Assembly (NCBI GenBank): GCA_026416665.1
Contig: JAOAET010000014.1
Location: forward strand, 557-64,556
Direction of reading: 5' to 3'
Origin: Candidatus Omnitrophota bacterium
GTDB taxonomy: Bacteria; Omnitrophota; Gorgyraeia; Gygaellales; Profunditerraquicolaceae
Length of the DNA: 64,000 nt
The translations under genes and the position numbers were made by a program. Shown here piece after piece: positions 1-27,925 of this stretch (position 1 is the first letter of the stretch; every line of letters starts with the position of its first letter). The notes beneath the pieces are model-generated. The model did not search any database, was not told where the DNA came from, and worked only from the letters and a program-made list of their open reading frames with translations.

Positions 1-4
1 TTTT

Positions 5-1696
5 TTATCCTTCAACATCAAGAGTAACTCGCATTACCTCCTCTGGGGTTGTTAATCCCCCTAAAAGTTTCTGCAATGCTGCTTGCCGCAAGGTTATTAG
101 ACCATCTTTTATGGCCAACTCTCTAATTACATCTGCTGACTCTTTTTTTAAAACCGCCTCTTGAATAGTAGGAGTAACTTTTAATAATTCGTAGATACCT
201 GTTCTCCCCTTATACCCTGTTTGATTACAAACCTTGCAACCTCTTCCTTTCATAAAAGTAACAGGCTTATTAATATAACTATCAAGACCCAAGCTTTTTA
301 ATAATTCTGGTTTAGGCTCATAAGATTCTTTACATTTATCACATACCTTTCGTAATAATCGCTGAGCCAAAACGCCCAAAATTGAGGAAGAAATAAGGAA
401 TGGCTCTACTCCCATATTCATTAACCGTGTAAACGCAGACGGTGAATCATTGGTATGGAGTGTAGAAAAAACCATATGACCAGTCAAAGCTGCTTGTACA
501 GCAATCTCAGCTGTCTCTAAATCGCGTATTTCTCCTACCATAATAATATCCGGATCTTGTCGTAAAAACGACCTTAAAGCTGTAGCAAAAGTAAGCCCGG
601 CAACAGGATTTACTTGCACCTGACGCATTCCAGGGAATTGATATTCTACAGGGTCTTCAACAGTCATGATATTGACATCCTCTTTATTAAGTAACTGTAA
701 AGCAGAGTACAGTGTGGTGGTTTTTCCACTTCCAGTAGGACCAGTTACCAGAAGAATACCATAGGGTGAAGAAATTAATTCTTTAAAAGTAGCTAAAGTC
801 TGCGGAGGAAATCCTAGCGACTCCAGCCCCAGAACAAGTCCACTTTTATCTAGAATTCTTAAAACAATATTTTCTCCGTGCACAGTAGGACAGGTAGAGA
901 CACGAAAGTCTATATCTTTAGAACCAATCTTCATCATGATTCTTCCATCTTGTGGCAGACGTTTTTCCGCAATATCTAACCCCGCCATAATTTTAAAGCG
1001 TGAAGTTATGGCGCTAGCTAAATCTTTAGGAAGCGCGGGTTGTCTATGAAGCATTCCATCTATACGATAACGCACATTAAGGACATTTTCTTCAGGTTCA
1101 ATATGGATATCCGATGCCTTGTTTTGTACAGCTTGAATAATCAAATAATTTACAATTTTTATTATTGGCGCCTCTTCTCCTAATTTATCCGCCTCAACTA
1201 ACTTATTTTTATCAATAGAAGAAACTATCTCTTGTAAACTGCCTGTAGGGCCATAATACTGATCCTGCGCCTTGCGTATTTCAATCTCATCACAAGACAC
1301 CGGTTCAACATTCAGCTTTGTTAACCTTTGAATTTCGTCTATTACATAAACATTTGTAGGGTCAACCATAGCTACCGTAAGAGTGCTCTCTACTATAAAT
1401 ACAGGCATTATTTTATATTTGCGTGCAAAAAATTCGGGTATTAACCGGATTACTTCTGGTTCAATAATATAACTTGAGAGATTAAAAGCGGTAATACCCT
1501 TTTGCATATTAAGACATTTTTCGACAGCCTCTCGACTTGCCCAACCACGGCGCACAATAATCTCCCCAAGTTTTCCCCCTGACATCTTCTGTTCCATTAA
1601 GGCCTCATTAAGTTGTGAGGGGGTAATTAGACCTTTTTCAATAAGAAGCTCTCCTATCTTCTTTGGAATTTCTCCCATTTTTCCCTCATTTATCAA
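5..1696 (-). CDS. GspE/PilB/MshE-family type IV filament assembly ATPase (ATPase 1)
   Basis: Walker A GPTGSGKTT, Asp/His boxes and tetracysteine CDKC...CKVC. N-terminal T2SSE_N domain carries two 24-residue MshEN-like motifs (KIGELLIEKGLITPSQLNEALMEQ and KLGEIIVRRGWASREAVEKCLNMQ) separated by 5 residues. Confidence 0.9.
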   Translation of the reverse strand: MINEGKMGEIPKKIGELLIEKGLITPSQLNEALMEQKMSGGKLGEIIVRRGWASREAVEKCLNMQKGITAFNLSSYIIEPEVIRLIPEFFARKYKIMPVFIVESTLTVAMVDPTNVYVIDEIQRLTKLNVEPVSCDEIEIRKAQDQYYGPTGSLQEIVSSIDKNKLVEADKLGEEAPIIKIVNYLIIQAVQNKASDIHIEPEENVLNVRYRIDGMLHRQPALPKDLASAITSRFKIMAGLDIAEKRLPQDGRIMMKIGSKDIDFRVSTCPTVHGENIVLRILDKSGLVLGLESLGFPPQTLATFKELISSPYGILLVTGPTGSGKTTTLYSALQLLNKEDVNIMTVEDPVEYQFPGMRQVQVNPVAGLTFATALRSFLRQDPDIIMVGEIRDLETAEIAVQAALTGHMVFSTLHTNDSPSAFTRLMNMGVEPFLISSSILGVLAQRLLRKVCDKCKESYEPKPELLKSLGLDSYINKPVTFMKGRGCKVCNQTGYKGRTGIYELLKVTPTIQEAVLKKESADVIRELAIKDGLITLRQAALQKLLGGLTTPEEVMRVTLDVEG

Positions 1697-2839
1697 TTAC
1701 CACAAATTTTCTTTTAACCATTGATCTATCTTTTCCATTCTATCTAACCAAGAACTAACCTCTTCATTTTTTGAACGCCTTTGCCTAGAAGTTTGTATTT
1801 CATTACTGGCTGGTTTCTTTAGCGTTTTTTTATAAACAATTTCCTGTTGTAATTTTCTTTCACTCTTCTTTTGGACTGGTTGTATTATTTCCTTTTCCTG
1901 TTGTTTATTTAGCTTTTGACTTAGTTTATCTTCTTCTCTTTTTTCTTGACCGGTTTGTAGCAATTTAATATCTTTACTTTTTTGTTGTTGAGCAAGACGT
2001 TGTATTTCTTTCTCATATAACTGTTCACGCCTCTGACGAAATAATTCTTCTTCTCTAATCTGCTTTTGCCTTTGTTGCTCTTCTTTCTCCTTTTGTCGTC
2101 TTAATCGTTCTTCCTCTTGTAAACGTTTTTTTCTTTCTTGTTGTTGAATACGGAATTCTGCTTGGGAAGATGTATATTTGACTTTTTCTTCTTCAGGTTT
2201 ACTCACTAATTGTTCTTTTTTTTGCTGTTGAGGTATATTATTTTCAACTTCCTTTATCTTGACTTTTTCTTCTTGCTTATTCTTTGGTTCATATTCTTTT
2301 TTTTGTTCCGTCTTTGTAAGCTGCTTGTATCTCTCATCCTGCTCTAATTTCCTCTTTGCCAACATCTCTTGCCTTTGCGCCTGTCTTTGAGCTTTTAACT
2401 GCTCAATTCTGCCCTCTTTTTCCTGTCTTCTCATAACTAGCTGTTTAAGTTTTTCTTTACGCTGTTGCCTCTGTTGTGCCAATAACTGCTTGCGCCTATT
2501 ATTCTCTTCACGAACCTGCTGTTGCTTCTCTTGCTTTTTTTTATCCACTGCATCTTCTATCTTTAGTTTCTGTTTGGATTTTTCCTGTTTATTTAAAAGC
2601 GCATTCCTACTTTTTCTTTCCTCTATTTGAACTTGTAACTTTTTCCGTTGATTAACTAAATTTTTATAATATTGTTGTAAATCCGAAACCTCCCTTTCCT
2701 GTTGTTGTATTGTTTTTTCTAAGTTCCTGATACGTTCACTCAATTCGTCATATTTAGGTACCTCTGCCAGAGACAAGGAATCTATAAAAAAACAATTCAC
2801 TAGACTAAAAATTCCCATTACTAATAAACGCCTTTTCAT
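1697..2839 (-). CDS. secreted ER/K-rich coiled-coil / single-alpha-helix protein (380 aa)
   Basis: N-terminal signal peptide MKRRLLVMGIFSLVNCFFIDSLSLA. The remaining ~350 residues are almost exclusively K/E/R/Q/L with heptad character. Adjacent to the ATPase with no intergenic gap. Confidence 0.6.
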   Translation of the reverse strand: MKRRLLVMGIFSLVNCFFIDSLSLAEVPKYDELSERIRNLEKTIQQQEREVSDLQQYYKNLVNQRKKLQVQIEERKSRNALLNKQEKSKQKLKIEDAVDKKKQEKQQQVREENNRRKQLLAQQRQQRKEKLKQLVMRRQEKEGRIEQLKAQRQAQRQEMLAKRKLEQDERYKQLTKTEQKKEYEPKNKQEEKVKIKEVENNIPQQQKKEQLVSKPEEEKVKYTSSQAEFRIQQQERKKRLQEEERLRRQKEKEEQQRQKQIREEELFRQRREQLYEKEIQRLAQQQKSKDIKLLQTGQEKREEDKLSQKLNKQQEKEIIQPVQKKSERKLQQEIVYKKTLKKPASNEIQTSRQRRSKNEEVSSWLDRMEKIDQWLKENLW

Positions 2840-2857
2840 TCTTATTCCCTTCTTAAC

Positions 2858-4102
2858 TTAATAAGAAACTGTCCCTTGCAAAACACCTTGATGTTGTTGC
2901 CTTAAGGTTTTTAAAAAACTTTCTTCTGTCTCTAAATTCCTCTCTAAATCTTTCATCTGAATTGCCAGACTTTCTTGTTCTTTAAGTAAATTTTCTGTCT
3001 CGTTCAATATTTTCTCAAACCGTTTATCACACCTTTCTGTAAGCTCTATTTCCATTAGGCGATTACGTTTTTCATTCCAGTCTTTTAACCGCTTCTCTTC
3101 TTTGAGCTGGTTGTATTCTTGCTGTTTTTTTGGTTTTTCGGCCAATTCATATCTTTTTCGTACCTCTCGTATCTGTCTTATCCATGGGCGTTGTTTCAAT
3201 ATTTCTTCTCTTTTCCTCTGACGAATAATTTCCTTTAACTTCTGTTGATGTTCTCTTTTCTTGTAAGTAGTTTCTTCTCTTATTCTTTCAAATTTATTTT
3301 GTCCTTCTTCTTGTTTATTGGCTAACAACTCTTCTCTAAGTTTATCTTCCTCTGTTCTAGTTTGCTTTATTTCCTTGTTCTTACTTTTACTTAAAATATG
3401 TCTTAGCATCTGCCTTTCTCTAATTTTAAGCTTTTTATCAATACGTTTTAACTCTCTTTTTTTTCTTGCTTCTTGCTGCAGTTTATTTTTTCTTTCTTGA
3501 TGTTCCTTTGTCAACAGATTTTTAAGTTTATCTTTTTCTTGTTTTCTTTGGGCCTTCTTTTCCTCTTCAAGTTTTCTCTCAATTTCTCTAGTTATTAAAT
3601 TTTCTTGACGTTGAATTTCCCTTAGAGCTATCTTCTGTGCTTTTTTATCTTTTAACTCTTGGTTATGTTTTAATCTTTCTTCCTTACGTTCTATTGCCAT
3701 TATTTCTTTTCGTTTTCTGACCTCTTCCTTCTTAACACGCTCCTGTTTCCTTCTCTCCTCCTGCTGCTGCCTTAACCTCTCCCTCTCCTGCTTCTTCTTC
3801 TCTATCTCTTGCCTGTATTTGACCTTCTTTTTTTGAAGTTCTTTTTCTTCCTTATCTTTTTTTTCTAATTGCCGCTGCCTTATTTTATTTGTTATTTCCC
3901 TTTCTTTTTCCAGCTGTTCTTTCTTTATTTCTTTGTACCTTGTGCGTAGAAAATTTATTTTTTCTTCTTGTAGTTTTATCTGCTCTTCTAACTGTCTTAC
4001 TGACCTAAGCAATTCTTCTTCGGAATCTGCCCAAGAAGAAAATGAAAGGGTAAAAAAGCCAAGTATAGTGAATATAAATATTAACCATCCTCTATAATTC
4101 AT
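2858..4102 (-). CDS. secreted ER/K-rich coiled-coil / single-alpha-helix protein (414 aa)
   Basis: Signal peptide MNYRGWLIFIFTILGFFTLSFSSWA followed by ~390 residues of an ER/K (KEKE-type) charged helix. Paralogous in composition to the neighbouring genes. Confidence 0.6.
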   Translation of the reverse strand: MNYRGWLIFIFTILGFFTLSFSSWADSEEELLRSVRQLEEQIKLQEEKINFLRTRYKEIKKEQLEKEREITNKIRQRQLEKKDKEEKELQKKKVKYRQEIEKKKQERERLRQQQEERRKQERVKKEEVRKRKEIMAIERKEERLKHNQELKDKKAQKIALREIQRQENLITREIERKLEEEKKAQRKQEKDKLKNLLTKEHQERKNKLQQEARKKRELKRIDKKLKIRERQMLRHILSKSKNKEIKQTRTEEDKLREELLANKQEEGQNKFERIREETTYKKREHQQKLKEIIRQRKREEILKQRPWIRQIREVRKRYELAEKPKKQQEYNQLKEEKRLKDWNEKRNRLMEIELTERCDKRFEKILNETENLLKEQESLAIQMKDLERNLETEESFLKTLRQQHQGVLQGTVSY

Positions 4103-4116
4103 AGGATAATTATTAT

Positions 4117-4803
4117 TTAACCCTTCTTCTCTGTTTCTAATTTTTCCAATATATTATTTAGTTTCTTTATCTTCGCCTCTTCTTTGTTTAACAAGGTTTC
4201 TAGCAAACGTATTTTTCGTTCCAAAGATGTTTTCTTTCTGATAAGAAATTTTAAGGTCTTAGTAGGATTTTCAGTTTGTTCCGCTCTGTTACTAAACAAA
4301 GCCTCTTCGATTACTTTTTGACGAACCGCTACCAAATCTTCAGTTTTCTGGTGGGGTATTGTAGATGGTTTAGATTGTTTACTTCTAATAACTTTTTTTC
4401 TATTCTCTTCGTGTTTCTTCTTTAAAACTTTTGTTGACGTAGGTAGGAATAATTGTTCTTTTTTCACCTCTTTTTCTTTTGTAACTAATTGCTGTCTTGA
4501 TTTAGCAGAAATATCTTTTTCTTTACTGTACTTTTCTTTTTTCTTCTCTTGTTTTGTAAGACATTCGATCTCTTTCTTTTGCTGATTGATAGACAATTCA
4601 AGCTGCTTTCTTTGATAAACGAGATTTTCTAATTTTTTTTGCAGTTGGTTCACATATCTCTGCTGTTGAACAATCTCTTCGGTCAGTTGTTTAATCTTAA
4701 ACTTCAATATTCTGGGATTTTCAGAATTAAAAGCCATGCAATTTACCAAAGCAACCTCAAAAAATAAGCCTATAAATATCAAAATTGTAATATAATTTTT
4801 CAT
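4117..4803 (-). CDS. secreted ER/K-rich coiled-coil protein (228 aa)
   Basis: Signal peptide MKNYITILIFIGLFFEVALVNCMA, then a charged K/E/Q-rich helical sequence. Third member of the tandem triplet. Confidence 0.55.
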   Translation of the reverse strand: MKNYITILIFIGLFFEVALVNCMAFNSENPRILKFKIKQLTEEIVQQQRYVNQLQKKLENLVYQRKQLELSINQQKKEIECLTKQEKKKEKYSKEKDISAKSRQQLVTKEKEVKKEQLFLPTSTKVLKKKHEENRKKVIRSKQSKPSTIPHQKTEDLVAVRQKVIEEALFSNRAEQTENPTKTLKFLIRKKTSLERKIRLLETLLNKEEAKIKKLNNILEKLETEKKG

Positions 4804-4822
4804 TGGTAATTTTTTTTATTTC

Positions 4823-6106
4823 TTAATTAAAACTCTTTTCACCCTTTAGAGTATTTTTCTCTTTTTCTAGCTGTTTGATACGTTCTTCTTCCATATTTAC
4901 AGCTTCTTGTAATTTTTTTGTCTGGTTAATTAATAATTCCTGTTTCTTTAATAGCTCGTTCCACTTAACAGCAAGTTTATTGGCTTTATCCATTTCCTTT
5001 TTCTCTCGTTCAAGTATCCTTATTTCTTCTTCTTCTCTCTCTCTCACAAAATTCCTGCTAATGCCATAGCGTTCTTGCCTAGCTATCTGAGCTATTTTCT
5101 CTTCATTTATAATAGAAGGCGAAACGAAAATAAGTAGTTCAGTTCTTTCTTTAGTATTTAGTTTTGCCTTAAATAAATTACCTAATAAAGGAATATCTCC
5201 CAAAAGAGGAATTTTGGTCTCTGACTTTACATTACGACTGCGCATCAACCCCCCAAGTATCACAGTCTGGTTACTTTTAAGAACCAACTTAGTAGAAGCC
5301 ATTCTTCGGTCAATAATGGGCACAGTATAAGGTATAGATACACCTCCACTGGCAACAGTTAAAGTGTAATCATCTATCTTTTCACTAATTTCAGGATTAA
5401 GCGTCATTAATATATCCCCATTTTCGCTGATAGTTGGCGTTACCTGCAGCATAATACCTACATCTTCAAAATGAATTGTCCAGGTAACTTGAACCGACCC
5501 AGATTCTGAAGTAGTCAGTGTAGGTTCAGCCCAAGGTAACTGCTGAACAATCCTAATTTGTGCTGGACGGTTATTTACTGTTGCTACACGAGGTGCAGAA
5601 AGTACCTCTGTATTATAACTATTGGCTAAAGCATTGATAACAACATTAATATTTTCATCAAAAATAGAAAAGGTAAAAGGTGTTTCCTCTAATGTCCCTC
5701 CTGGCTCGATAGTGTTCTTGTAAGGTATAAGCTGAGTAAGGGATTCAGGAGGAATACCCACTGTACCTGCAGTAGTGCTACCTACTTTAAAATTGCCCAC
5801 TTCTGCTCCCTCAGAATGAAACAACCGCCAATTTACTCCTAATGATTGCTGATCAGTTAACCGCACCTCTACTACCCTTGCCTCAATAAGAACCTGCGCT
5901 GGAGACACATCAATAGCTTCCAGGTACTCACTAATCCTTTTGATATTTTCAGGATAGTCCATTACCACGATAGAATTGGGTTCTTCGCCGTAAAAAACTT
6001 TTCCTTCACTAGAAAGTAAAGCGCGAATATTATTACTTACTTGTTGTGCATAGATATTCACTAATAAAATTGCTGTAATTATAACAATCAAGATGATTTT
6101 TTTCAT
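4823..6106 (-). CDS. short secretin (GspD/PilQ family): one Secretin_N domain plus secretin core, with C-terminal ER/K coiled-coil tail
   Basis: Own signal peptide. N1-like VLIEARVVEV. Secretin core VLSAPRVATVNNRPAQIRIV...IPLLGDIPLLGNLFKAKLNTKERTELLIFVSPSII. Last ~90 aa are an ER/K-rich helix (EREEEEIRILEREKKEMDKANK...). Confidence 0.85.
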   Translation of the reverse strand: MKKIILIVIITAILLVNIYAQQVSNNIRALLSSEGKVFYGEEPNSIVVMDYPENIKRISEYLEAIDVSPAQVLIEARVVEVRLTDQQSLGVNWRLFHSEGAEVGNFKVGSTTAGTVGIPPESLTQLIPYKNTIEPGGTLEETPFTFSIFDENINVVINALANSYNTEVLSAPRVATVNNRPAQIRIVQQLPWAEPTLTTSESGSVQVTWTIHFEDVGIMLQVTPTISENGDILMTLNPEISEKIDDYTLTVASGGVSIPYTVPIIDRRMASTKLVLKSNQTVILGGLMRSRNVKSETKIPLLGDIPLLGNLFKAKLNTKERTELLIFVSPSIINEEKIAQIARQERYGISRNFVREREEEEIRILEREKKEMDKANKLAVKWNELLKKQELLINQTKKLQEAVNMEEERIKQLEKEKNTLKGEKSFN

Positions 6107-6137
6107 TCTTCTACCTCTTTTTAATATTTAATCTTGC

Positions 6138-6992
6138 CTATTTGCTTGAACCACTACTAGCTGTCCCAGTAGTTGTACTAGTAGTAGTCTGCACCTGTGT
6201 TCCCGTTGGAGTAATTACTTCTGTGGTTGTAGTTATCTTTTCGGTAGCGCCTACTACCTCATCCGCCTTAAGATATTTTAGTTTAAATACCCGTGTTTCC
6301 ATTTTATGATCTACTGTCTCTAAATATTGGGCAACGCGTTTTATATTTTCAGGATAATCAATTACCGTCAAAGCATTCTTCTGTGGTACTAACAAAATCT
6401 TTCCTTTTTTGGAGAGTAATGCAAATAAACCAGAAACCTGCTGATTATCTGATGAATCGCTACCTTCTCCTTTATTAGTAGCCGTAGTAGAGACCTCAAA
6501 AAGTTTCTTGGCTTCTATATGCTTTAACACAAAAGTTTGTGTTAATAGGTTTGGCCTTACTCTTAAAAGTGTTCCTTTTTTCTCAAGGATAAGATTACTA
6601 TGTTCGGCAATGGCCTCAAGTGCCTCTTCAAGCGAGATATCCGTAAAACTTGCCGTAATTTTTCCATCTACATCTTCATCTATAAGAATATTCAAATTAT
6701 AATCATGGGCAATAACACGAAACAAATCTCCTAAATTAACATTCCTTAATTCAATAGAATAGCGAGGTGCTTCTGCTTCTAACCGTTTTATTTCCAATAC
6801 CGGTGCATTAGTTAACTCTCTGTTAATCGGTTCTTGGACTTTTTGACCTTGTTGTTGGTTTGGTTGCTGTTGAGTAGGTTGAGATTTATCCTGACCAGCT
6901 GGCTCTTGTGCTTCTATATTTCCGTAATAAAACATACAAAACAAGCATAAAAGATAAATTTTTAATCCCTTATGTCTCTGAAAAACTAACAT
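6138..6992 (-). CDS. separately encoded secretin N0–N1 domain protein with Q-rich N-terminal and T/S-rich C-terminal low-complexity segments
   Basis: Signal peptide. STN/N0-like LGDLFRVIAHDYNLNILIDEDVDGKITASFTDISLEEALEAIAEH. N1-like ALTVIDYPENIKRVAQYLETVD, paralogous to VVMDYPENIKRISEYLEAID of the downstream secretin. Ends TTTTEVITPTGTQVQTTTSTTTGTASSGSSK. Confidence 0.6.
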   Translation of the reverse strand: MLVFQRHKGLKIYLLCLFCMFYYGNIEAQEPAGQDKSQPTQQQPNQQQGQKVQEPINRELTNAPVLEIKRLEAEAPRYSIELRNVNLGDLFRVIAHDYNLNILIDEDVDGKITASFTDISLEEALEAIAEHSNLILEKKGTLLRVRPNLLTQTFVLKHIEAKKLFEVSTTATNKGEGSDSSDNQQVSGLFALLSKKGKILLVPQKNALTVIDYPENIKRVAQYLETVDHKMETRVFKLKYLKADEVVGATEKITTTTEVITPTGTQVQTTTSTTTGTASSGSSK

Positions 6993-7004
6993 CCTATCTC
7001 CTTC

Positions 7005-9017
7005 TTACCGCCGTGTAGATAAAAATACACGTATAACCTCATCAATTAGTCGGATATCCGCTATATCTTGTATCCCAAGAATATCTAGGCTATCATTTGT
7101 TATTTTTAGCGCATAACAACGTTTGTTTGGGAAGCTTAAAAAATCCGCTTGTTGTTTCTTCTCTTCTTTTAATGCCAAACCAAATTTTTGGGAAAGCATT
7201 TTCTTAAATGCCTCAGCATAAGAAACAGCATCGTTGAGTGTTTTCCATTTAATCTGTAACAGAAATAAGCGATTACCGTTATTATGTCTGTATATTGAAA
7301 TTTTATCGTTTTGCCAAGCACCACAGATTTCTTCTGCTTCCTCTTTGGGCAGAATCTGGCGTAAAGTCATTAAAAGGTAAAACTCACCTATACTATCTTC
7401 ATATTCTTTATGCCAGCCTTCCGGAAAAGTTAATACGTTGACCTCTTCCTTCTGTTGGGCAGATTTATCTGCTAAAGACTGTTCAGTAACCGAGCGATAT
7501 GGATGTAACAGTTGCTGTGTGGTAGAAGGCGGTTTGGCAAACAATTTATCCAAATCATTCCATTGTTTATCACTAAGGTAATATTGAATATAATTAGCAC
7601 CATATCCATATAAACTGTATTGCAACTTATCTATTGTCTCTTTATTGTCTTTTAATATCTTATTCTCGATTAAATCAAAGATATCCCCCAAAGATTTGAA
7701 ACTCTTTCCATCCTTACTTAATATATACTCTAGTTGAATAGCTTTTGCCTCGCCTTCTAAAAGCATATTTAAGGCAGTGATATTATCTTGCGAAAGCTTA
7801 TCTTTATTTATTCCAAGTATCTCTGGTGAATAGTAAGTATGTTGATAAGCATGTACGAGTTCATGAACTAAAACCGTTTCTGCTAACTCAGGACTAAGCC
7901 ACTGCCCTAAGAAAATCTTTTTCCTCTGTTTACTATACAAACCAGCAACAGAAGCTATTAAAGAATCAACCAACATCTCACGGTAATTTATTGCCTGCGG
8001 AACTAATCCCAACCATTTCAGAATCTCTTCTTGAATAGCAAAATATTCTGTATTATATTCTTTTTCAAGGTCCTCTAAAACATAAGAACGTAAACTTACT
8101 CTATCTATAAATTCAATCCCAAAATCCTCAAATGGCTTCCATCCACGTAACTGAGTAATCCATTGAATTAAGGTAGGAATCTTCTGTTTTATTTTTTCTC
8201 TCTCACCTAATACCTCTTGTTGAATATCTGAAGGCACATCAAATTTCTCTGTTGGATTTTGTTTCTGATAATGATTAAGTTGTAAAAAATACATCCCATT
8301 GATTTTTCCTTCAATTCGCGCCAAAACTGTAAAAAAATCTGTAGTATCTATCCAGATAGTCTTAGTAAGTTGTCCGCTTATACCTTTTTCTTCTAAGATC
8401 TTTGGGTTAATTGTGTAACGTAAAACATAACACTTCTTTCCAAAACGTTCTTCTATTGCCAGTATTTCTTTAGTAACAGGTTCTGCCTCTTCTTGTTGGA
8501 CATAAAAAAGAGATTGTAAAAACTGATACGTCAATATTTCATTTTTATCTTTATCAGATATTTGCAGCTTTTCTCTTTGCCATTTTCTTTTTTGCGCATC
8601 CCAAACAAAAGAAAGACCGTCGTAATCATACCCTTGCGCCCAGTCAGCAGTAGAGATGCCATAAGGCACAGTTAAAGAAACACTGATTTTGGTATCTGTT
8701 TTTATATTTTCGAGTCTATCTATCAGATCCTTACTATTTACTCTTATATGAAACAACTCATGTCCCAACCAAACATCAGAAATAACTATAAACTTAGGAG
8801 TTTGCAAAAACGCACTGGCTGTTTTATATAAAAGATAGTCTGAATCTATTTGGGTATTTAATGGTAACCATGAAGTATTTTTACCTCTCTGCTGTTGTTG
8901 GGCTATCTCACTTAAATATTGTCTCAGTTGCACCGCCTCCCACCCTAACAAAAAAGGTAAGCATAAGAGTAAGTAGAATTTTCTTTTAATTTTTTCTTTT
9001 ATGGGCTTAACCATCAA
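7005..9017 (-). CDS. secreted HExxH zinc-metallopeptidase-like protein (MA-clan, gluzincin-like), 670 aa
   Basis: N-terminal hydrophobic signal or anchor (FYLLLCLPFLLGW). HELVHAYQH motif followed ~30 aa later by LLEGEAKAI, a candidate third Glu ligand. No recognisable named peptidase family. Confidence 0.45.
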   Translation of the reverse strand: MMVKPIKEKIKRKFYLLLCLPFLLGWEAVQLRQYLSEIAQQQQRGKNTSWLPLNTQIDSDYLLYKTASAFLQTPKFIVISDVWLGHELFHIRVNSKDLIDRLENIKTDTKISVSLTVPYGISTADWAQGYDYDGLSFVWDAQKRKWQREKLQISDKDKNEILTYQFLQSLFYVQQEEAEPVTKEILAIEERFGKKCYVLRYTINPKILEEKGISGQLTKTIWIDTTDFFTVLARIEGKINGMYFLQLNHYQKQNPTEKFDVPSDIQQEVLGEREKIKQKIPTLIQWITQLRGWKPFEDFGIEFIDRVSLRSYVLEDLEKEYNTEYFAIQEEILKWLGLVPQAINYREMLVDSLIASVAGLYSKQRKKIFLGQWLSPELAETVLVHELVHAYQHTYYSPEILGINKDKLSQDNITALNMLLEGEAKAIQLEYILSKDGKSFKSLGDIFDLIENKILKDNKETIDKLQYSLYGYGANYIQYYLSDKQWNDLDKLFAKPPSTTQQLLHPYRSVTEQSLADKSAQQKEEVNVLTFPEGWHKEYEDSIGEFYLLMTLRQILPKEEAEEICGAWQNDKISIYRHNNGNRLFLLQIKWKTLNDAVSYAEAFKKMLSQKFGLALKEEKKQQADFLSFPNKRCYALKITNDSLDILGIQDIADIRLIDEVIRVFLSTRR

Positions 9018-9436
9018 TTCTTATTATTTTCCTCTTGTGACTGAGACTTCAAAATACTGCTTACTTTTATAACGTATTCTCCAACACTATCTTTTAACCT
9101 AATTTCTTCTGGTTTGATATTGGTAATCTCTTTATTATCTACATAATCGCCTATTTTCAATATCCTCCCATTGACAATAACACAGCTTTTTCCAGCATCA
9201 GGCGCATATATAATGGCAGTAATATTAAATCCATCTAAAGGAATAGCCGTTCCTTGTTCCTGAAATAATTTTTCTTCGTCACTGGTAAGAAAAGGATTCT
9301 CTTTACCTTTTAAGATAATAGGCCCTTTCTCCACAGTAACCTCAGTTTGAGTAAAAGAAAAAACCATAAGTAAATTAGAAAAAGTTAAAGTTGTGGTTAC
9401 ACCGATAATCTTTATAAGAAGACTTAATCTAGCCAA
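9014..9436 (-). CDS. PilP/GspC-like small periplasmic protein
   Basis: N-terminal membrane anchor. C-terminal beta-rich segment with VIVNGRILKIGDYV, resembling PilP/GspC secretin-interacting domains. 4-nt overlap with the downstream gene. Confidence 0.35.
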   Translation of the reverse strand: MARLSLLIKIIGVTTTLTFSNLLMVFSFTQTEVTVEKGPIILKGKENPFLTSDEEKLFQEQGTAIPLDGFNITAIIYAPDAGKSCVIVNGRILKIGDYVDNKEITNIKPEEIRLKDSVGEYVIKVSSILKSQSQEENNKN

Positions 9437-9620
9437 GATGCCCCCTCATTATTTCTTTTAGTTTTTTTAAGTCATCCTCAGTGTATTGACGCCAGCGGTT
9501 AATAAGATTTCTTCGTGCTTTAGGAAAAATTCCTTTTTTCTCGTAGCGGAACAGGGTTTGTTTAGAGATTCCAAGTCTCTCAGCTACTTCCTGTGCAGTA
9601 AACATTTTGCTCTCACTCAT
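9429..9620 (-). CDS. small helix-turn-helix DNA-binding protein (MerR/excisionase HTH_17-like)
   Basis: FTAQEVAERLGISKQTLFRYEKKGIFP is a canonical HTH. 63 aa. SD-like AAGGTAGG upstream of the ATG. Confidence 0.6.
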   Translation of the reverse strand: MSESKMFTAQEVAERLGISKQTLFRYEKKGIFPKARRNLINRWRQYTEDDLKKLKEIMRGHLG

Positions 9621-9721
9621 ATAACCTACCTTTCTGAGAAAAATTACTGTTTTATTTTCTTTAAAATAGCATTTTACCAGTATCCCTTATTGTTTAATAT
9701 TCTACTTCTGTTAAAACTGAT

Positions 9722-9747
9722 AATACTTGATAGTATTTGATAGTATT
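9722..9747. repeat. operator-like repeat: inverted repeat AATACT-tgat-AGTATT followed by a tandem direct repeat of TGATAGTATT (x2)
   Basis: Read directly from the sequence in the 185-nt intergenic region upstream of the HTH gene. Confidence 0.5.
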
Positions 9748-9805
9748 GTAAACTACCAGATATAAATTGTCAAGATTTAATTTTTTATAATCCCTTTATT
9801 TTTAT

Positions 9806-10639
9806 TTAGTTAGAAAAAAGACGCACTAATAATTTTCTATCCTCTGCCGTCAGATTATTAATTCGAATCCCTAGCAAATAATTTTTATAGTTTACCATCG
9901 TGCTGCGCAGGATTTCTCCTTTTGCCTCTATTACACAAGTTTCAAACCCACATTTTTCGAACCCATAGAGTGTAAAGGAAACATATATATGAGGTGGTAA
10001 AAATAAAGGCATCTCTGCTCCTAAAGCAGAACAATCCGCCGAAACATTTAAAACTTTTCCTTCAATAACTCTGGGAGCAAACAATTTAACTTCTTCATCA
10101 ACAAGAGTAAGCTGTATTTTACCAGAAACAGGTAATCTATCTGCCTCTCGCCATTGACTAACCCCACTTAAAGGATTATGCTTAATAAGATATCTAGTGA
10201 TTTCAAAATTCTGTTCATCAAGTTTGTAATAGAGATCTATAGCAGCTAAAATTTCGTGAGTAGTAGCAACCACCGGCTCAATCGTTAATCCTGTAATTTT
10301 GGAAACATCGTCAATAAGAGCTGCGTTTAAAGGATTAGCACATGCTAAAAACAAAGTATTGCCTACCTTATATAAGGGAAAAACCTTATTTTGTAAACAA
10401 TAATTTTCTTCTAAAAGATGAAGCACATGTGGCGAAATTGCATAATCAGAAATACGTACAAATGCAAAACCACCCATTTGTGCAAAGAAACAAGCCAGCT
10501 GTTCTTCTGATAAAAACCCTAATTTTACCAGACATATCCAAATAGATTTTTTACTGGTGGTGGCTTCAAGGCGAGCAACATCAAGCTGCCATTGTTCAAT
10601 CCATTTGTTCTCTAATAACTCTTTTTCGAGATCTAACAT
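9806..10639 (-). CDS. T2SSE_N (GspE N-terminal-like) domain fused to a PilZ c-di-GMP-binding domain
   Basis: N-terminal region is T2SSE_N-like (LVKLGFLSEEQLACFFAQ...VFPLYKVGNTLFLACANPLN). C-terminal region has canonical PilZ motifs RxxxR (READR, residues 164–168) and DxSxxG (DCSALG, 202–207). Confidence 0.6.
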   Translation of the reverse strand: MLDLEKELLENKWIEQWQLDVARLEATTSKKSIWICLVKLGFLSEEQLACFFAQMGGFAFVRISDYAISPHVLHLLEENYCLQNKVFPLYKVGNTLFLACANPLNAALIDDVSKITGLTIEPVVATTHEILAAIDLYYKLDEQNFEITRYLIKHNPLSGVSQWREADRLPVSGKIQLTLVDEEVKLFAPRVIEGKVLNVSADCSALGAEMPLFLPPHIYVSFTLYGFEKCGFETCVIEAKGEILRSTMVNYKNYLLGIRINNLTAEDRKLLVRLFSN

Positions 10640-10648
10640 AAATTAAAG

Positions 10649-11875
10649 TTACTTCTTAAATAACTGTATCATATTCCATAATGGTAAAAAAATAGCCAGT
10701 GCCATACCCATTACTACCACCCCCAAAACAGCTGTCATCAAGGGTTCAATTAATGCCGTGAGATTTTTTACCGTAGTTCGCACTTCCAGCCCGAAGTATT
10801 CACATAAAGAATCTAACATCAAAGGTAATTGTCCACTTTTTTCTCCTACCGACACCATATAACCAACTAACCTTGGAAAAAACTTACTGTTAAGGATACC
10901 TCCAGATATACCCTTTCCATCTGCAACTGCTCGTTTAATAATATTAACCTCATTCTCTAACACAACATTACCAATCGTCATTCCTACAATCTCTAACGTC
11001 CTTAGAATAGGTAAACCAGATTGGTATAAAACATTTAACATACTGGCAAACCGTAACATAGTTATTTTAGTATAAAGTTTACCAAAGATAGGGATTTTAA
11101 ACTTTAAGCTATCCCAAAAATTACGCCCAAAAGCAGTTTTAATAAAAACGCGCCATAATAATGAAAATACACCAATACCTGCTATAACCGCATACCAATA
11201 ATGGCGTAAAATGTGTCCAAATAAAATCATTATTTGTGTGGGTAAAGGCAGTTGGGTGTTGGCCTGGGCATAAATTTTGGCAAACTGGGGCATAACAAAT
11301 ACTGTCAATACCACCACCGCCACAATCATAGCAATTACTACCATAATAGGATATCGTAAAGCCGCTGATATATTGGAACGTGTCTCTAAATCTTCTTCTA
11401 ACATCTCTGCCAAACGCATCAGAACCTTATCTAAAATTCCTGCACTCTCCCCCGCTATCACGGTATTTACATAAAGTTCAGAGAATATACCTGGATGCTT
11501 TGCCAATGCCTGAGATAAACTTGTTCCTGCCTCTACATCGCGTAAAATTTCTTGTAGCGCTTTTTTTAATGCAAGATCTTCTGCCTGTTCAGCAAGTACT
11601 CCCAATCCTTCTAAAATAGGCACCGCTGCTTTAATGATAGTGGCAAATTGCCGAGTGAATATCACCAATGTGCGCATATCCACTGTGCCGTGGGTTTTCT
11701 TACCTGCTCCAGAAACACCTTTTTTAATTTGTGTTTTTGCCTTAAAAGTGATACTCACAGGTAAATATCCTTTTTTTGCTAATTCAGTAGTTAAAGCCAT
11801 TTCACTGGTAGCTTCCATTTCCCCTTTCACGTATTTTCCCTGACTATCTACTGCTTTATATATATACCAAGTCAT
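10649..11875 (-). CDS. PilC/GspF inner-membrane platform protein
   Basis: 408 aa. Typical N-terminus (YKAVDSQGKYVKGEMEA), two T2SSF repeats and TM helices. Confidence 0.85.
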   Translation of the reverse strand: MTWYIYKAVDSQGKYVKGEMEATSEMALTTELAKKGYLPVSITFKAKTQIKKGVSGAGKKTHGTVDMRTLVIFTRQFATIIKAAVPILEGLGVLAEQAEDLALKKALQEILRDVEAGTSLSQALAKHPGIFSELYVNTVIAGESAGILDKVLMRLAEMLEEDLETRSNISAALRYPIMVVIAMIVAVVVLTVFVMPQFAKIYAQANTQLPLPTQIMILFGHILRHYWYAVIAGIGVFSLLWRVFIKTAFGRNFWDSLKFKIPIFGKLYTKITMLRFASMLNVLYQSGLPILRTLEIVGMTIGNVVLENEVNIIKRAVADGKGISGGILNSKFFPRLVGYMVSVGEKSGQLPLMLDSLCEYFGLEVRTTVKNLTALIEPLMTAVLGVVVMGMALAIFLPLWNMIQLFKK

Positions 11876-11898
11876 ACCCTCTACCCTTAAATCTTATT

Positions 11899-13716
11899 CT
11901 ACTTTCTATTACTTAACCAATTGGCAATGCGCTTTTCATAAGCAGCTATCTGAGATTCATCCACTTTTACTGGTTGCTGAGATAAAGTACTTGCAGGCGG
12001 AGAAGGAATTGCTGGACCAACAAGAATTTCCTCAGAAGTTGATCGTAAATCAAGATGTTCTTCGCAAACCCTAGCTACTTCTTCCAAAGTGGTTATACCT
12101 TGCAATACCTTTGATAAACCATCTTCACTTAGGAGTTTCATCCCTTTTGCTTGCGATTTTTTACGTAACTGCACAGTAGATGCACCCGCAATAATCATTT
12201 CTCTAATCTCATCATCCACCACCATTAGTTCAAATAATCCGGTTCGTCCGCGATAACCTGTCCCTTTACAATAATCACAACCCTTTCCCCTGTATAAACG
12301 AATATTCTTCTTATGGCTTAATCCCCATTTTTCCAAAACTGCCTTCGTTGGTTCATATGACTCCTTACAATGTTCACAGATAACCCTTACCAACCTTTGT
12401 GCCATAACTCCAATAAGAGAAGCTGAGATTAAAAAGGACTCCACTCCCATATTAACTAAACGCGTTACTGCTGAGGGTGCATCATTGGTGTGCAAAGTAG
12501 AAAAGACTAGATGTCCAGTTAAGGCAGCCTGAATAGCAATAACTGCTGTCTCTAAATCTCTTATCTCTCCGACCATAATTACATCAGGATCTTGACGCAG
12601 AATTGCCCTTAAACCATTTGCGAAGGTAATTCCTGCCTTAACATTTACCTGTATTTGTCGAATCAGTCCGAGACGGTATTCTACAGGGTCTTCAATTGTA
12701 ATGATATTACGGTCAATAGTGTTGATGCGCATAAGGGCTGAATATAAAGTGGTAGTCTTTCCACTACCTGTTGGACCAGTGGAGAGAATAATTCCGTACG
12801 GTCGCGAGATAAGCTCTTCATACCGCTTAAGCATATCTTGGGTAGAAAACCCTAATTTTTCCAGCCCAATCATTACTGAGGCAGTATCCAAAAGCCGAAT
12901 CACCACATTCTCTCCATAAATAGTGGGAATGGTTGAAACACGAAAATCAATAATTTTATCATCTATCTTTGACTGAAAATGGCCATCCTGGGGAATTCTA
13001 CTTTCCGCTATATCCATACCTGCCAACACCTTAATGCGTGAGATAATTGCTCCTTCCCAATCTTTAGGGGGAGGCGGTATTTCATGAAGGATACCGTCAA
13101 TTCTAAAACGAATTCTTAGAATTTCTTGTTCTGGTTCAATATGTATATCCGATGCCCTGTCACGAACCGCTTGTGAGATAATTAAATCTACTAATTTTAT
13201 AATTGAAGCTCCTTCTTGAGCAGATTTGGCAGTGGCAGAGGAAACTGCTACTTGAGCATAGTCAGTCATAAGCTTTTCGTCTTGGGGCCTGCGTTTATAC
13301 ACTTTAATACGCGCCTCTTCTATATCTTCGGGACTGGCCAAATAGGGCTCTACATGAAGACCAGTTTGCATCTTTATTTGGTCAATAGAAAAAATATCCC
13401 CTGGATCCACCATTGCTACGTGAAGCACTCCTTGCTCCAAACGAAATGGTACAGACTGGGTCTCAGTAGCTAAGGATTCAGGCATACGTTCTATCATTTC
13501 TTCGGGTGCTTTAACAACATCTAATTTAACGAAGTTAAATCCAAGTTTTCTGGCAATGGCCTCATAGAGTTTGTGGCGATTGACCAACCCCATCTCTACC
13601 ACTACCTTTACTAGTGGACGTCTCAGTTTCTTAATCTCCTCTTGTGCCTTATCTAAATTTTCCTGACTGATTAATTCCTCCGAGATAAGTAGTTGGGCTA
13701 ACTCCATGTCGTTCAT
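11899..13716 (-). CDS. GspE/PilB-family type IV filament assembly ATPase (ATPase 2)
   Basis: Walker A GPTGSGKTTT and tetracysteine CEHC...CDYC. N-terminal T2SSE_N domain without the MshEN motif. Confidence 0.9.
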   Translation of the reverse strand: MNDMELAQLLISEELISQENLDKAQEEIKKLRRPLVKVVVEMGLVNRHKLYEAIARKLGFNFVKLDVVKAPEEMIERMPESLATETQSVPFRLEQGVLHVAMVDPGDIFSIDQIKMQTGLHVEPYLASPEDIEEARIKVYKRRPQDEKLMTDYAQVAVSSATAKSAQEGASIIKLVDLIISQAVRDRASDIHIEPEQEILRIRFRIDGILHEIPPPPKDWEGAIISRIKVLAGMDIAESRIPQDGHFQSKIDDKIIDFRVSTIPTIYGENVVIRLLDTASVMIGLEKLGFSTQDMLKRYEELISRPYGIILSTGPTGSGKTTTLYSALMRINTIDRNIITIEDPVEYRLGLIRQIQVNVKAGITFANGLRAILRQDPDVIMVGEIRDLETAVIAIQAALTGHLVFSTLHTNDAPSAVTRLVNMGVESFLISASLIGVMAQRLVRVICEHCKESYEPTKAVLEKWGLSHKKNIRLYRGKGCDYCKGTGYRGRTGLFELMVVDDEIREMIIAGASTVQLRKKSQAKGMKLLSEDGLSKVLQGITTLEEVARVCEEHLDLRSTSEEILVGPAIPSPPASTLSQQPVKVDESQIAAYEKRIANWLSNRK

Positions 13717-14357
13717 TTCTTCTGTCCTTCTTGCAATTGTATAATCCAGCTCTTTACTAAATTTGCATCAGGAGCATCGCCAGAGATATTAAGATATTGT
13801 TGGTAGTATTTAATTGCCTTATCTTTGTTACCCAAATAATTTTCATATAAAACAGCCAGATTATAACAGGCATCTTTATCTAAAGGATTTAAATTAAGTA
13901 CGAGTTTAAACGCCTCTTCTGCCTGAATAAACTGCCCTTGGAGTAAGTACTCGATACCCAAATTATAGTAATAGTCAGGGTTTGATGTTTCTTTTTTTAA
14001 TTCTGTAAGATAATAAGTAAGGGCTTTATCCATTCTTTTCTTCTCTTCTTCGGTTGCTTTATGCGAAAAGTCTTTCTGCGTTGTTTCTGACTTAATAGGC
14101 AACTCCGCTGGCATCAATGCTGATAGGCCTTGTATCTCTTGCAGTAAAATTTCTACCCGATTAAACTCAAGATTTGCTGCGGTATAGTTACCCTCTTGAA
14201 TATAAATCTTACCCTTCTCATAATGTTGTTGCGCTTCAGCAAGTTTCTGTTGCTTTAATTGCCAAAAATCTTCTGTAGCAATAACTAACACATTGAAAGA
14301 TAGTAAAAATAATCCAATAATTAAAATTATCCACTTTTTTATTAGCATCTTTTGCAT
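13713..14357 (-). CDS. TPR-repeat protein with N-terminal membrane anchor (PilF/pilotin-like?)
   Basis: Signal/anchor followed by TPR-like repeats (AANLEFNRVEILLQ..., YYYNLGIEYLLQGQFIQAEEAFKLVLNLNP, ACYNLAVLYENYLGNKDKAIKYYQQYL). Confidence 0.5.
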   Translation of the reverse strand: MQKMLIKKWIILIIGLFLLSFNVLVIATEDFWQLKQQKLAEAQQHYEKGKIYIQEGNYTAANLEFNRVEILLQEIQGLSALMPAELPIKSETTQKDFSHKATEEEKKRMDKALTYYLTELKKETSNPDYYYNLGIEYLLQGQFIQAEEAFKLVLNLNPLDKDACYNLAVLYENYLGNKDKAIKYYQQYLNISGDAPDANLVKSWIIQLQEGQKK

Positions 14358-14360
14358 AGA

Positions 14361-16872: not shown

Positions 16873-16907
16873 AAATATACCCTTTTGCTATCATTTTCTA
16901 TAAAAAC

Positions 16908-17366: not shown

Positions 17367-17372
17367 ATAATC

Positions 17373-19756: not shown

Positions 19757-19757
19757 T

Positions 19758-24035: not shown

Positions 24036-24049
24036 GCAACAAACAAGAA

Positions 24050-26045: not shown

Positions 26046-26169
26046 TGTCTACTCTCCTAAAGATATAATTTTTTACATTCTTATATAATGTTATTTTATC
26101 TATTTTTCTGCACAGTAACCAGAGAATTTTTAATAAATAAAAAGTTGTCTTATACAAAAATTTAAAAAC

Positions 26170-27921: not shown

Positions 27922-27925
27922 ATTT

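What the first reader, a model, noticed from the sequence alone, without database searches (positions are those of the whole stretch)
4823..6992. Split secretin: N0–N1 domains encoded as a separate secreted protein upstream of a short secretin
The 284-aa upstream product has its own signal peptide, an STN/N0-like domain and an N1-like domain whose sequence (VIDYPENIKRVAQYLETVD) is clearly paralogous to the single N-domain of the downstream 427-aa secretin (VMDYPENIKRISEYLEAID). Both proteins begin with independent signal peptides and are separated by a 31-nt spacer, so this is not a simple frameshift of one long gene. The N-domain protein also carries a Q-rich N-terminal segment and a T/S-rich C-terminal segment (possibly glycosylated or a flexible linker). 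A two-polypeptide secretin periplasmic vestibule would be unusual.
Basis: partly seen in the sequence, partly recalled or inferred. Interest (0 to 1): 0.55.

Follow-up and report, generated by a model that had tools for sequence, protein, structure and literature searches.

The report
Two-gene secretin split inside a domain
In this Omnitrophota genome the outer-membrane pore protein (secretin) of a pilus/secretion machine is encoded as two adjacent, separately exported proteins, and the break lies in the middle of a small folded domain, so the two halves probably have to snap together again in the periplasm.

Summary
On the minus strand, 6138..6992 encodes a 284-aa signal-peptide protein (A: N0/STN and one Secretin_N domain). 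After a 31-nt spacer, 4823..6106 encodes a 427-aa secretin (B) with its own signal peptide.

It is not a frameshift or a pseudogene:
- All 30 Omnitrophota species-representative loci that hold both genes have the same pair. Gaps run from -41 to +245 nt, in all three relative frames.
- B always carries a signal peptide.
- dN/dS is 0.15-0.36 for A and about 0.1 for B.

A ends with strand beta1 and the start of helix alpha1 of a further Secretin_N domain. Mature B begins with the rest of that domain. Neither fragment passes Pfam's threshold alone, but joined they match the whole model (39 bits).

A few syntenic orthologs (about 5%) are single-chain. They carry a low-complexity loop exactly where the stop codon and signal peptide sit in the split form. 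These fused forms are scattered in the tree.

Best reading: a conserved gene fission whose two products reassemble by fragment complementation. This is inferred, not shown, and the AlphaFold evidence was ambiguous. The only precedent found, rhizobial RhcC1/RhcC2, has a different origin. I rate it a new variant of a known kind.

The parts
6138..6992 (-). Gene A: 284-aa secreted N-terminal half of the secretin (signal peptide, Q-rich linker, N0, N1, then beta1/alpha1a of the next N domain and a low-complexity tail)
   Evidence: ORF. Pfam Secretin_N 4.3e-10, STN and GspD_N0 weak. 195 homologs, nearly all 230-395 aa. 80 clusters at 50% identity with E<=1e-30. dN/dS 0.15-0.36.
6909..6992 (-). A signal peptide (res 1-28, ...GNIEA|QE)
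   Evidence: Read from the sequence. Aligned hydrophobic N termini in 21 orthologs. Heuristic only.
6807..6908 (-). Q-rich low-complexity linker (res 29-62), variable among orthologs
   Evidence: Alignment A1, columns 30-120, is not conserved.
6549..6806 (-). N0 / STN-like domain (res 63-148)
   Evidence: Pfam STN, GspD_N0 and FecR_C weak hits. NCBIfam PilQ model positions 3-74. PDB PilQ N0 alignments. Most conserved block of A1.
6309..6548 (-). N1 domain (Secretin_N, res 149-228), with a low-complexity insertion in helix alpha1 (res 168-185; 6438..6491)
   Evidence: Pfam Secretin_N model 1-64. The insertion ranges from 0 to about 80 aa in orthologs. N1 is absent from the '1N' variants L034, L035, P0302, P0304-P0306.
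6249..6308 (-). First fragment of the split N domain: HKMETRVFKLKYLKADEVVG (beta1 and the start of alpha1, res 229-248)
   Evidence: Matches Secretin_N model 1-15 and PilQ model from position 96. K239 and Y240 are invariant in A1. The motif is present near the C terminus of all 120 A homologs and in variants lacking N1. AF2 job 1 predicts a strand at these residues with pLDDT about 92.
6141..6248 (-). T/S-rich low-complexity tail of A (res 249-284), predicted disordered. Corresponds to the loop of fused orthologs.
   Evidence: pLDDT <50. Composition and length vary; the tail (after the ..VG) is only 3-5 residues in L025 and L029. Fused orthologs have a continuous S/T/G loop here.
6107..6137 (-). 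31-nt intergenic spacer with a further in-frame stop and the AGAGG ribosome-binding site for B
   Evidence: Orthologous gaps run from -41 to +245 nt in all three frames.
4823..6106 (-). Gene B: 427-aa short secretin (own signal peptide, rest of the split N domain, secretin core, coiled-coil tail)
   Evidence: ORF. Pfam Secretin 2.5e-44. 2639 homologs. PDB GspD and PilQ, E 1e-33 to 1e-25. dN/dS about 0.1.
6047..6106 (-). B signal peptide (res 1-20, ...VNIYA|QQ); no lipobox
   Evidence: An SP-like N terminus is found in 28/28 complete orthologous loci and in 111/114 short B homologs. Heuristic only.
5900..6046 (-). Second fragment of the split N domain (end of alpha1, beta2, beta3, alpha2; res 21-69)
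   Evidence: Secretin_N model 14-69, 27.3 bits alone (below threshold); 38.8-39.6 bits and model 1-69 when joined to A 229-248. 0/114 short B homologs have a beta1 motif. pLDDT 90-94 in AF2 job 1 and 76-87 in job 2.
5051..5899 (-). Secretin pore-forming core (res 70-352)
   Evidence: Pfam PF00263. The AF2 model matches the solved secretins PilQ 6w6m, PulD 6hcg and GspD 5wq7 at E 1e-19 to 1e-17.
4826..5050 (-). C-terminal charged coiled-coil tail of B (res 353-427), in place of a pilotin-binding S domain
   Evidence: Read from the sequence. Similar tails occur in orthologs. Function not tested.

Best explanation
This is a genuine, phylum-wide gene fission of a PilQ/GspD-class secretin, belonging to a type IV filament (pilus/type II secretion-like) gene cluster of Omnitrophota.

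The break sits in a low-complexity loop that interrupts helix alpha1 of the N domain next to the pore.
- Protein A (signal peptide, N0, N1, beta1 and the first half of alpha1, disordered tail) and protein B (signal peptide, second half of alpha1, beta2, beta3, alpha2, secretin core, coiled-coil tail) are each exported by Sec. This step is shown only as sequence features.
- In the periplasm, A's C-terminal strand most likely completes B's incomplete N domain by fragment (donor-strand-like) complementation. This step is inferred.
- The result would be a two-chain protomer equivalent to the single-chain orthologs. B forms the outer-membrane pore, and A hangs below it as the N1 and N0 rings that dock onto the inner-membrane platform. 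The conserved GspB-like protein encoded just upstream is a candidate partner.

Split and fused forms have interconverted several times, which says that the covalent link is dispensable.
For: Not an artefact:
- 30/30 Omnitrophota species-representative loci with both genes are split. Gaps run from -41 to +245 nt in all three frames, with an SP-like start on B.
- Synteny is conserved.
- dN/dS is 0.15-0.36 for A and 0.09-0.12 for B.

The break is inside a domain:
- A 233-247 matches Secretin_N model 1-15. Mature B matches model 14-69 at 27.3 bits, below the 28.2 threshold.
- The joined sequence matches model 1-69 at 38.8-39.6 bits.
- The NCBIfam PilQ model aligns in one stretch across the junction, positions 96-428. 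These are the same boundaries as in the natural fused ortholog P0186. B alone starts at model position 122.

The beta1 fragment is selected for:
- K239 and Y240 are invariant.
- The motif is present in 120/120 A homologs, 15-51 residues before the end, while the tail after it varies freely.
- It is retained even in variants that have lost N1 entirely (L034, L035, P0302, P0304-P0306).
- 0/114 short B homologs have their own beta1.

Equivalence to one chain:
- Syntenic fused orthologs read beta1/alpha1a, then an S/T/G loop, then alpha1b, with no signal peptide.
- Fused P0191 is sister to split L005 with 100% bootstrap and 77% identity. Monophyly of all fused forms has 0% support.

Structure prediction:
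- In the AF2 model of A62-284 joined to B21-352, the beta1 strand has pLDDT about 92, the tail <50 and the rest of N3 90-94. N3's beta3 is a 6-residue strand, versus 4 residues when beta1 is not docked.
- The model matches solved secretins.
Against: - No direct evidence of an A-B complex.
- The structure tool returns no coordinates, so I could not see which sheet the beta1 strand joins in job 1. It could pack on N1, whose own beta1 was poorly modelled.
- In job 2 (A228-284 + B21-352, no N1, and no homologs covering beta1 in the alignment) the beta1 segment was disordered (pLDDT <40). AF2 therefore did not dock it there.
- Signal peptides were judged by eye and a simple heuristic.
- The direction of change (fission first, later re-fusions) rests on a neighbour-joining tree with distant outgroups and moderate support near the root (51-73%).
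- The existence of fused forms shows that the split is not required for function, so any adaptive value is speculative.
Confidence: 0.7

Rival explanations
1. A is an independent periplasmic adaptor that does not complete B's fold. It would be an N0-N1 protein that rings the channel or binds the inner-membrane platform. The C-terminal FKLKY strand would be conserved for another reason, for example strand augmentation onto a different partner, onto the neighbouring protomer, or onto the second secretin of the cluster.
For: - AF2 job 2 did not dock the strand on B's N domain.
- B's partial N domain still folds with pLDDT 76-87 without it.
- A second, complete secretin and a PilMNO set lie 9-13 kb away in the same cluster.
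Against: - HMM coordinates of the two fragments are exactly complementary and additive.
- Fused syntenic orthologs contain the same two fragments as one domain.
- A and B are always adjacent.
- No B homolog has its own beta1.
Confidence: 0.2
2. Sequencing or assembly frameshift, or a decaying pseudogene of a single long secretin gene.
For: A minority of orthologs are single ORFs.
Against: - The same split is seen in 30/30 independent species-level genomes and in over 100 metagenomic clusters, with varied spacer lengths and frames.
- A further in-frame stop, a Shine-Dalgarno site and a 20-residue signal peptide lie between the fragments.
- Both genes are under purifying selection.
Confidence: 0.01
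3. Partial homologous replacement, as in rhizobial RhcC1/RhcC2. A would be the remnant of an old secretin, and B a secretin imported from another system.
For: It is the only documented route to a two-gene secretin (Abby and Rocha 2012, PMC3459982, read).
Against: - A's N1 and B's N fragment are close paralogs.
- The two fragments fit one domain.
- Fused orthologs exist with the same order and the same loop.
- B has no BON domain or Tad-type architecture.
- The genes are adjacent, not dispersed.
Confidence: 0.03

Closest known systems
PilQ / GspD / MshL-class secretins (Pfam PF00263 with PF03958 and PF07660; solved examples V. cholerae PilQ 6w6m, A. hydrophila ExeD 6i1x, M. xanthus PilQ 3jc8)
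   Same: - Same domains in the same order: N0, Secretin_N domain(s), secretin core.
- B's core matches GspD and PilQ at E 1e-33 to 1e-25. A matches PilQ N0-N1 at E about 1e-7.
- The AF2 model superposes on solved secretins.
- The gene cluster has PilB/GspE-like ATPases, PilC/GspF, pseudopilins and PilMNO.
   Different: - Encoded as two polypeptides, each with a signal peptide, with the break inside the last N domain.
- Low-complexity insertions in helix alpha1 of the N domains.
- A coiled-coil tail instead of an S domain, and no AMIN domains.
- All NCBIfam equivalog scores are below their cutoffs, even for the joined sequence.
Rhizobial (Rhc) type III secretion 'split secretin' RhcC1 (NolW) / RhcC2
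   Same: The N-terminal periplasmic part and the pore-forming part of a secretin are separate gene products. The N part is thought to link the pore to the inner-membrane ring (PMC3574062, PMC3973906, PMC3459982).
   Different: - The Rhc pair is a mosaic. RhcC1 is the remnant of a T3SS secretin, and RhcC2 is a Tad-type secretin with a BON domain acquired separately. The genes are not adjacent.
- Here the two genes are adjacent halves of one ancestral gene, cut within a domain. Fused orthologs exist in the same phylum, and the system is of the type IV filament class, not a T3SS.
Donor-strand complementation in chaperone-usher pili, and beta-strand augmentation between GspC HR and GspD N0 (recalled from general knowledge, not tested here)
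   Same: Mechanistic analogy only. A periplasmic fold that lacks a beta strand is completed by a strand from another, separately exported polypeptide.
   Different: - No homology to these systems.
- Here the complementing strand is the cognate strand of the same ancestral domain.
- The complementation is inferred, not shown.

Membership tests
Secretin superfamily (PF00263) | C-terminal secretin pore domain | tested here: met
   B res 159-333: 151.3 bits against a threshold of 27.5. PDB secretins at E down to 6e-33. The fold matches PilQ and GspD at E about 1e-19.
Secretin superfamily (PF00263) | At least one complete Secretin_N (ring-building) domain directly N-terminal of the pore domain, on the same chain | tested here: not met
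   B alone scores 25.9-27.3 bits, below the 28.2 threshold, covering model 14-69 only. The domain is complete (model 1-69, 38.8-39.6 bits) only when A 229-248 is joined on.
Secretin superfamily (PF00263) | N0 (STN/GspD_N0) domain on the same chain as the pore domain | tested here: not met
   N0 is in A (res 63-148), not in B.
Secretin superfamily (PF00263) | 12-15-mer gated channel in the outer membrane | not testable with these tools
   Only monomer prediction was available.
Type IV pilus secretin PilQ (NCBIfam TIGR02515) | Score above the curated cutoff (284.35 bits) | tested here: not met
   A 65.8, B 194.9, joined sequence 256.9, natural fused ortholog P0186 277.1 bits.
Type IV pilus secretin PilQ (NCBIfam TIGR02515) | AMIN domain(s) at the N terminus | tested here: not met
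   No AMIN hit in A or B at E<=0.1. A Q-rich low-complexity linker sits there instead.
Type II secretion secretin GspD (NCBIfam TIGR02517) | Score above the curated cutoff (351.35 bits), with N0-N1-N2-N3 on one chain | tested here: not met
   B 222.2, joined sequence 260.6 bits. Only N0, N1 and one split N domain, spread over two chains.
MSHA pilus secretin MshL (NCBIfam TIGR02519) | Score above the curated cutoff (250.2 bits) | tested here: not met
   B 185.5 bits. The cluster's ATPases do carry MshEN domains.
Rhizobial split T3SS secretin (RhcC1/RhcC2) | Secretin function divided between an N-terminal-domain protein and a pore protein | tested here: met
Rhizobial split T3SS secretin (RhcC1/RhcC2) | Pore protein of Tad type with a BON domain; the two parts of different evolutionary origin; T3SS gene context | tested here: not met
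   No BON hit. Fused orthologs and complementary domain fragments show a single origin. The context is PilB/PilC/pseudopilin, not a T3SS. The family definition is taken from PMC3459982.

The most novel reading that the evidence does not exclude
A naturally split protein domain that is rebuilt in the periplasm from two separately Sec-exported polypeptides.
- The last ring-building N domain of a secretin would be assembled in trans. The outer-membrane pore (B) and the periplasmic N0-N1 column (A) would then be made, inserted and perhaps exchanged or released independently.
- A low-complexity loop in helix alpha1 would act as an evolutionary hinge where the gene has repeatedly broken and re-fused across Omnitrophota.
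- If true, it is a natural fragment-complementation system and a new way of coupling a secretin to its inner-membrane platform.
Probability: 0.55. Interest if true: 0.65.

Novelty: new variant of a known kind. Interest (0 to 1): 0.55.

Why it matters
Secretins are the shared outer-membrane gates of type II and III secretion, type IV pili, competence and filamentous-phage export. They are treated as single-chain proteins whose N domains stack under the pore.

- A phylum-wide two-chain version, cut inside a domain, gives a natural experiment on three questions: which covalent links in the periplasmic column are needed, how N-domain rings are nucleated, and whether pore insertion and platform docking can be uncoupled.
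- It is also a clean evolutionary case of gene fission at a disordered loop, with acquisition of an internal signal peptide and later re-fusions.
- In practice, annotation pipelines label A as 'hypothetical' or 'secretin and TonB N-terminal domain protein', and B falls below all curated secretin cutoffs. Omnitrophota secretion machinery is therefore likely to be mis-scored as incomplete.

Tried and rejected
2. A mixed alignment of the joined sequence with A-only, B-only and fused rows (A3) was discarded. MAFFT aligned the A orthologs' N1 onto the N3 columns.
3. AF2 job 2 was meant to force a choice of docking site for beta1. The strand came out disordered, so the result is uninformative or negative. 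The alignment held no homolog of beta1 and had signal-peptide residues misaligned over it.
4. Including the fused rows in that shorter construct misaligned their signal peptides, so alignment A6 was dropped.
5. A DNA alignment of the junction in fused P0191, split L005 and the window was too diverged to show how the stop and signal peptide were lost or gained.
6. The Biopython bootstrap timed out and was redone with a numpy distance routine.
7. Covariation between A's strand and B's N fragment was not attempted. The motif is nearly invariant, and the one correlated change (clade L021/L028/L032/L034) is a single event.
8. A lipoprotein reading of B was rejected: there is no conserved lipobox cysteine.
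9. Literature searches for Omnitrophota/Omnitrophica plus secretin, and for phrases such as 'split PilQ' or 'bipartite secretin', found nothing relevant beyond the rhizobial T3SS case.
Full report
**Observation**

On the minus strand, 6138..6992 encodes a 284-aa protein (A) and 4823..6106 a 427-aa protein (B).
- They are separated by 31 nt. Read in A's frame, the stretch from A's stop onward holds two stops (A's own TAG and a second TAG inside the spacer). B's frame is closed by a TAA 24 nt upstream of its ATG, B is shifted +1, and an AGAGG ribosome-binding site precedes B's ATG.
- Pfam on A gives a Secretin_N domain (res 151-228, 40.1 bits, above threshold) and weak STN, GspD_N0 and FecR_C matches over res 81-147.
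- Pfam on B gives a strong Secretin domain (151 bits) and a sub-threshold, N-terminally truncated Secretin_N match.
- Both start with Sec-type signal peptides by inspection. The window is from a Candidatus Omnitrophica MAG: A is P0001 (N2606_00860) and B is P0121 (N2606_00855), on a 65-kb contig.

**Not an artefact**

- A's homologs are almost all stand-alone proteins of 230-395 aa: 195 hits in the 90% clusters and 80 representatives at 50% identity with E<=1e-30.
- 114 of the 120 best homologs of B are 396-446 aa long.
- I scanned one genome per species. All 30 Omnitrophota loci that contain both genes have A followed directly by B (28 complete pairs, two cut by a contig end).
- In these loci B has its own hydrophobic, basic N terminus ending in ..A|Q. 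The intergenic distance runs from -41 to +245 nt, in all three relative frames.
- Neighbouring genes are conserved: MshEN/T2SSE ATPase, T2SSF, MshEN-PilZ, a MerR-like gene, a small GspB/CdsD_C-like protein, A, B, a coiled-coil protein, a second ATPase, and pseudopilins.
- Between related genomes dN/dS is 0.15-0.36 for A and 0.09-0.12 for B. A frameshift, an assembly error and a pseudogene are therefore excluded.

**Where the cut is**

It does not carry a whole one.
- After its N1 domain, A continues with HKMETRVFKLKYLKADEVVG and then a T/S-rich tail. Mature B begins QQVSNNIRALLSSEGKVF...
- Against Pfam Secretin_N, A's segment matches model positions 1-15 (12.9 bits). B's mature N terminus matches positions 14-69 (27.3 bits, below the 28.2 threshold).
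- The two joined, with or without the tail, match positions 1-69 at 37.9-39.6 bits.
- The NCBIfam PilQ model aligns in a single stretch across the junction of the joined sequence (model 96-428). These are exactly the boundaries seen in the natural fused ortholog P0186. B alone starts at model position 122.
- The gene is therefore cut inside helix alpha1 of the N domain adjacent to the pore. Strand beta1 and the first turn(s) of alpha1 are on A; the rest is on B.
- A's own N1 domain carries a variable low-complexity insertion (0 to about 80 aa) at the homologous point of its alpha1. This loop position tolerates interruption.

**Conservation of the fragment**

- In an alignment of 21 A orthologs, K239 and Y240 are invariant, and K237, A243 and G248 nearly so.
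- All 120 A homologs carry the (V/I/T)FK(L/M)KY(L/I) motif 15-51 residues from the C terminus: 114 by a strict pattern and 6 with T/S/M at the first position.
- The tail after the motif is free to vary. It is T/S-rich, G/A-rich or E/K-rich. After the ..VG that ends the alpha1a fragment it is only 3-5 residues long in L025 and L029.
- Several lineages (L034, L035, P0302, P0304, P0305, P0306) have lost N1 altogether but keep N0 followed directly by this strand.
- None of the 114 short B homologs has a beta1-like motif of its own, and 111 have an SP-like start.

**Fused orthologs**

Eight cluster representatives are single chains.
- P0157, P0158, P0186, P0191 and P0248 have the order N0, N1, N, secretin. 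P0204, P0221 and P0296 have N0, N, secretin.
- In the fused orthologs read at this point, the sequence runs beta1/alpha1a, then an S/T/G-rich loop, then alpha1b, with no signal peptide. For example, P0186 reads ...VFRLKYLSAAEIVGEIEKKT-[S/T loop]-VTSKVLELLSLEGKILFG...
- P0186 and P0191 sit in the same gene neighbourhood as the split pairs and were assembled independently in several samples.
- I built a bootstrapped neighbour-joining tree of the region shared with B. Fused P0191 is sister to split L005 (100%, 77% identity), and monophyly of all fused forms has 0% support.
- The deepest ingroup branches (L031, and the 100%-supported clade L021/L028/L032/L034) are split.
- The simplest history is a single old fission followed by at least three re-fusions. 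However, the root rests on distant outgroups with 51-73% support, so the polarity is not settled.
- Either way, split and fused states interconvert among close relatives. That argues the two-chain and one-chain proteins do the same job.

**Structure prediction**

- Job 1 was the window's A62-284 joined to B21-352, with fused and B orthologs as the alignment. Mean pLDDT was 70.5.
  - The beta1 strand (A 232-237) had pLDDT about 92, the tail <50 and the rest of the split domain 90-94.
  - The model matches solved secretins (PilQ 6w6m 2e-19, PulD, GspD, InvG).
- No coordinates are returned, so I could not check which sheet the strand joins. N1's own beta1 was poorly modelled, which leaves room for a wrong pairing.
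- Job 2 omitted N1. Its alignment had no homolog over beta1. The strand came out disordered (pLDDT <40) and the rest of the N domain dropped to 76-87. Its beta3 was 4 residues long, against 6 in job 1.
- This is compatible with docking on B in job 1, but it is not proof. I count the AF2 evidence as suggestive only.

**Mechanism proposed**

- Shown: there are two genes, both conserved and constrained. Both have signal-peptide-like starts. The two domain fragments are complementary, and syntenic single-chain equivalents exist.
- Inferred: after separate Sec export, A's C-terminal strand inserts into B's incomplete N domain, a fragment or donor-strand-type complementation. B would form the pore, and A would supply the N1 and N0 rings that reach the inner-membrane platform.
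- The conserved 140-aa GspB/CdsD_C-like protein just upstream (9014..9436) is a plausible N0 partner. From general knowledge, GspB/ExeB-type proteins contact secretin N0-N1; this was not tested here.
- Why the split is kept is unknown. Independent insertion of a short pore protein, adjustable stoichiometry and reversible coupling are speculations.

**Comparison with known systems**

- The proteins belong to the secretin superfamily, and the closest relatives are PilQ, GspD and MshL types.
- No curated equivalog cutoff is reached, even by the joined sequence or the natural fusions. The subtype therefore stays open.
- There are no AMIN domains. A coiled-coil tail replaces the S domain.
- The only 'split secretin' in the searchable literature is the rhizobial and P. 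syringae Rhc T3SS pair RhcC1/RhcC2. Abby and Rocha showed it to be a partial replacement: RhcC1 is the N-terminal remnant of a T3SS secretin, and RhcC2 is a Tad-type secretin with a BON domain. The two genes are not adjacent.
- The Omnitrophota case differs in origin (fission of one gene), in position (inside a domain), in gene arrangement (adjacent) and in machine type.
- Searches for Omnitrophota/Omnitrophica with secretin, and for related phrases, found no description of it.

**Verdict**

- It is a new variant of a known kind of protein, of moderate interest.
- The fission itself is near certain. The trans-complementation mechanism is likely (about 0.6-0.7) but unproven.

Noticed in passing
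window 15463..16872 (-), with 16908..19756 and 20053..22800 (-): A second secretin in the same cluster is an ordinary one-piece protein (469 aa: N0, Secretin_N, Secretin). It has no low-complexity insertion. PilO- and PilM-like genes precede it, with three pseudopilin-like genes and a DUF7305 protein further upstream. The genome therefore has both a classical and a split secretin side by side.
   Followed up: partly
window 1697..2839, 2858..4102, 4117..4803 (-); L001 10291..13608; L043 10132..12768; L003 10242..10574: Directly after B lie three tandem genes for signal-peptide-bearing, extremely K/E/Q/R-rich coiled-coil proteins (228, 414 and 380 aa; no Pfam hit). At the same position, orthologous loci have one gene of 1105-1221 aa, one of 878 aa, or only one of 110 aa. 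This partner is highly plastic and may itself be repeatedly split or fused.
   Followed up: partly
window 4826..5050 (-): B ends in a roughly 75-residue charged coiled-coil tail where T2SS secretins have the pilotin-binding S domain. Similar tails occur in split and fused orthologs. It may pair with the downstream coiled-coil proteins.
   Followed up: no
window 7005..9017 (-): A 670-aa protein with an HExxH motif (LVHELVHAYQH) is inserted between the GspB-like gene and A. It has weak DUF6782 and peptidase matches, DUF8575 in orthologs, and NCBIfam Hvo_1808 family at 94 bits (below cutoff). It is present in L001/L002 but absent from L003, L042 and L043.
   Followed up: partly
window 9014..9436 (-) and 9429..9620 (-): A 140-aa protein with T2SSB/CdsD_C-like C-terminal domain hits is overlapped by 8 nt by a 63-aa MerR/HTH_17-like gene. 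The MerR-like gene lies immediately upstream of the secretin gene(s) in both split and fused loci, followed by the small protein in most of them (L042 lacks it).
   Followed up: partly
window 9806..10639, 11899..13716, 5..1696 (-): A stand-alone MshEN + PilZ protein and two MshEN-T2SSE ATPases suggest c-di-GMP control of the machine. Orthologous loci add a histidine kinase, a PilZ protein and a response regulator at this point.
   Followed up: no
P0301 (436 aa): An A-like protein (signal peptide, N0, part of N1) runs into a roughly 230-residue coiled coil instead of the beta1 strand. This is an odd architecture and may be a chimeric or degraded gene.
   Followed up: no
window 1..64000: GC skew is negative in every 2-kb bin. 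Nearly all long ORFs are on the minus strand, consistent with a single replication arm. G+C is about 36%.
   Followed up: no
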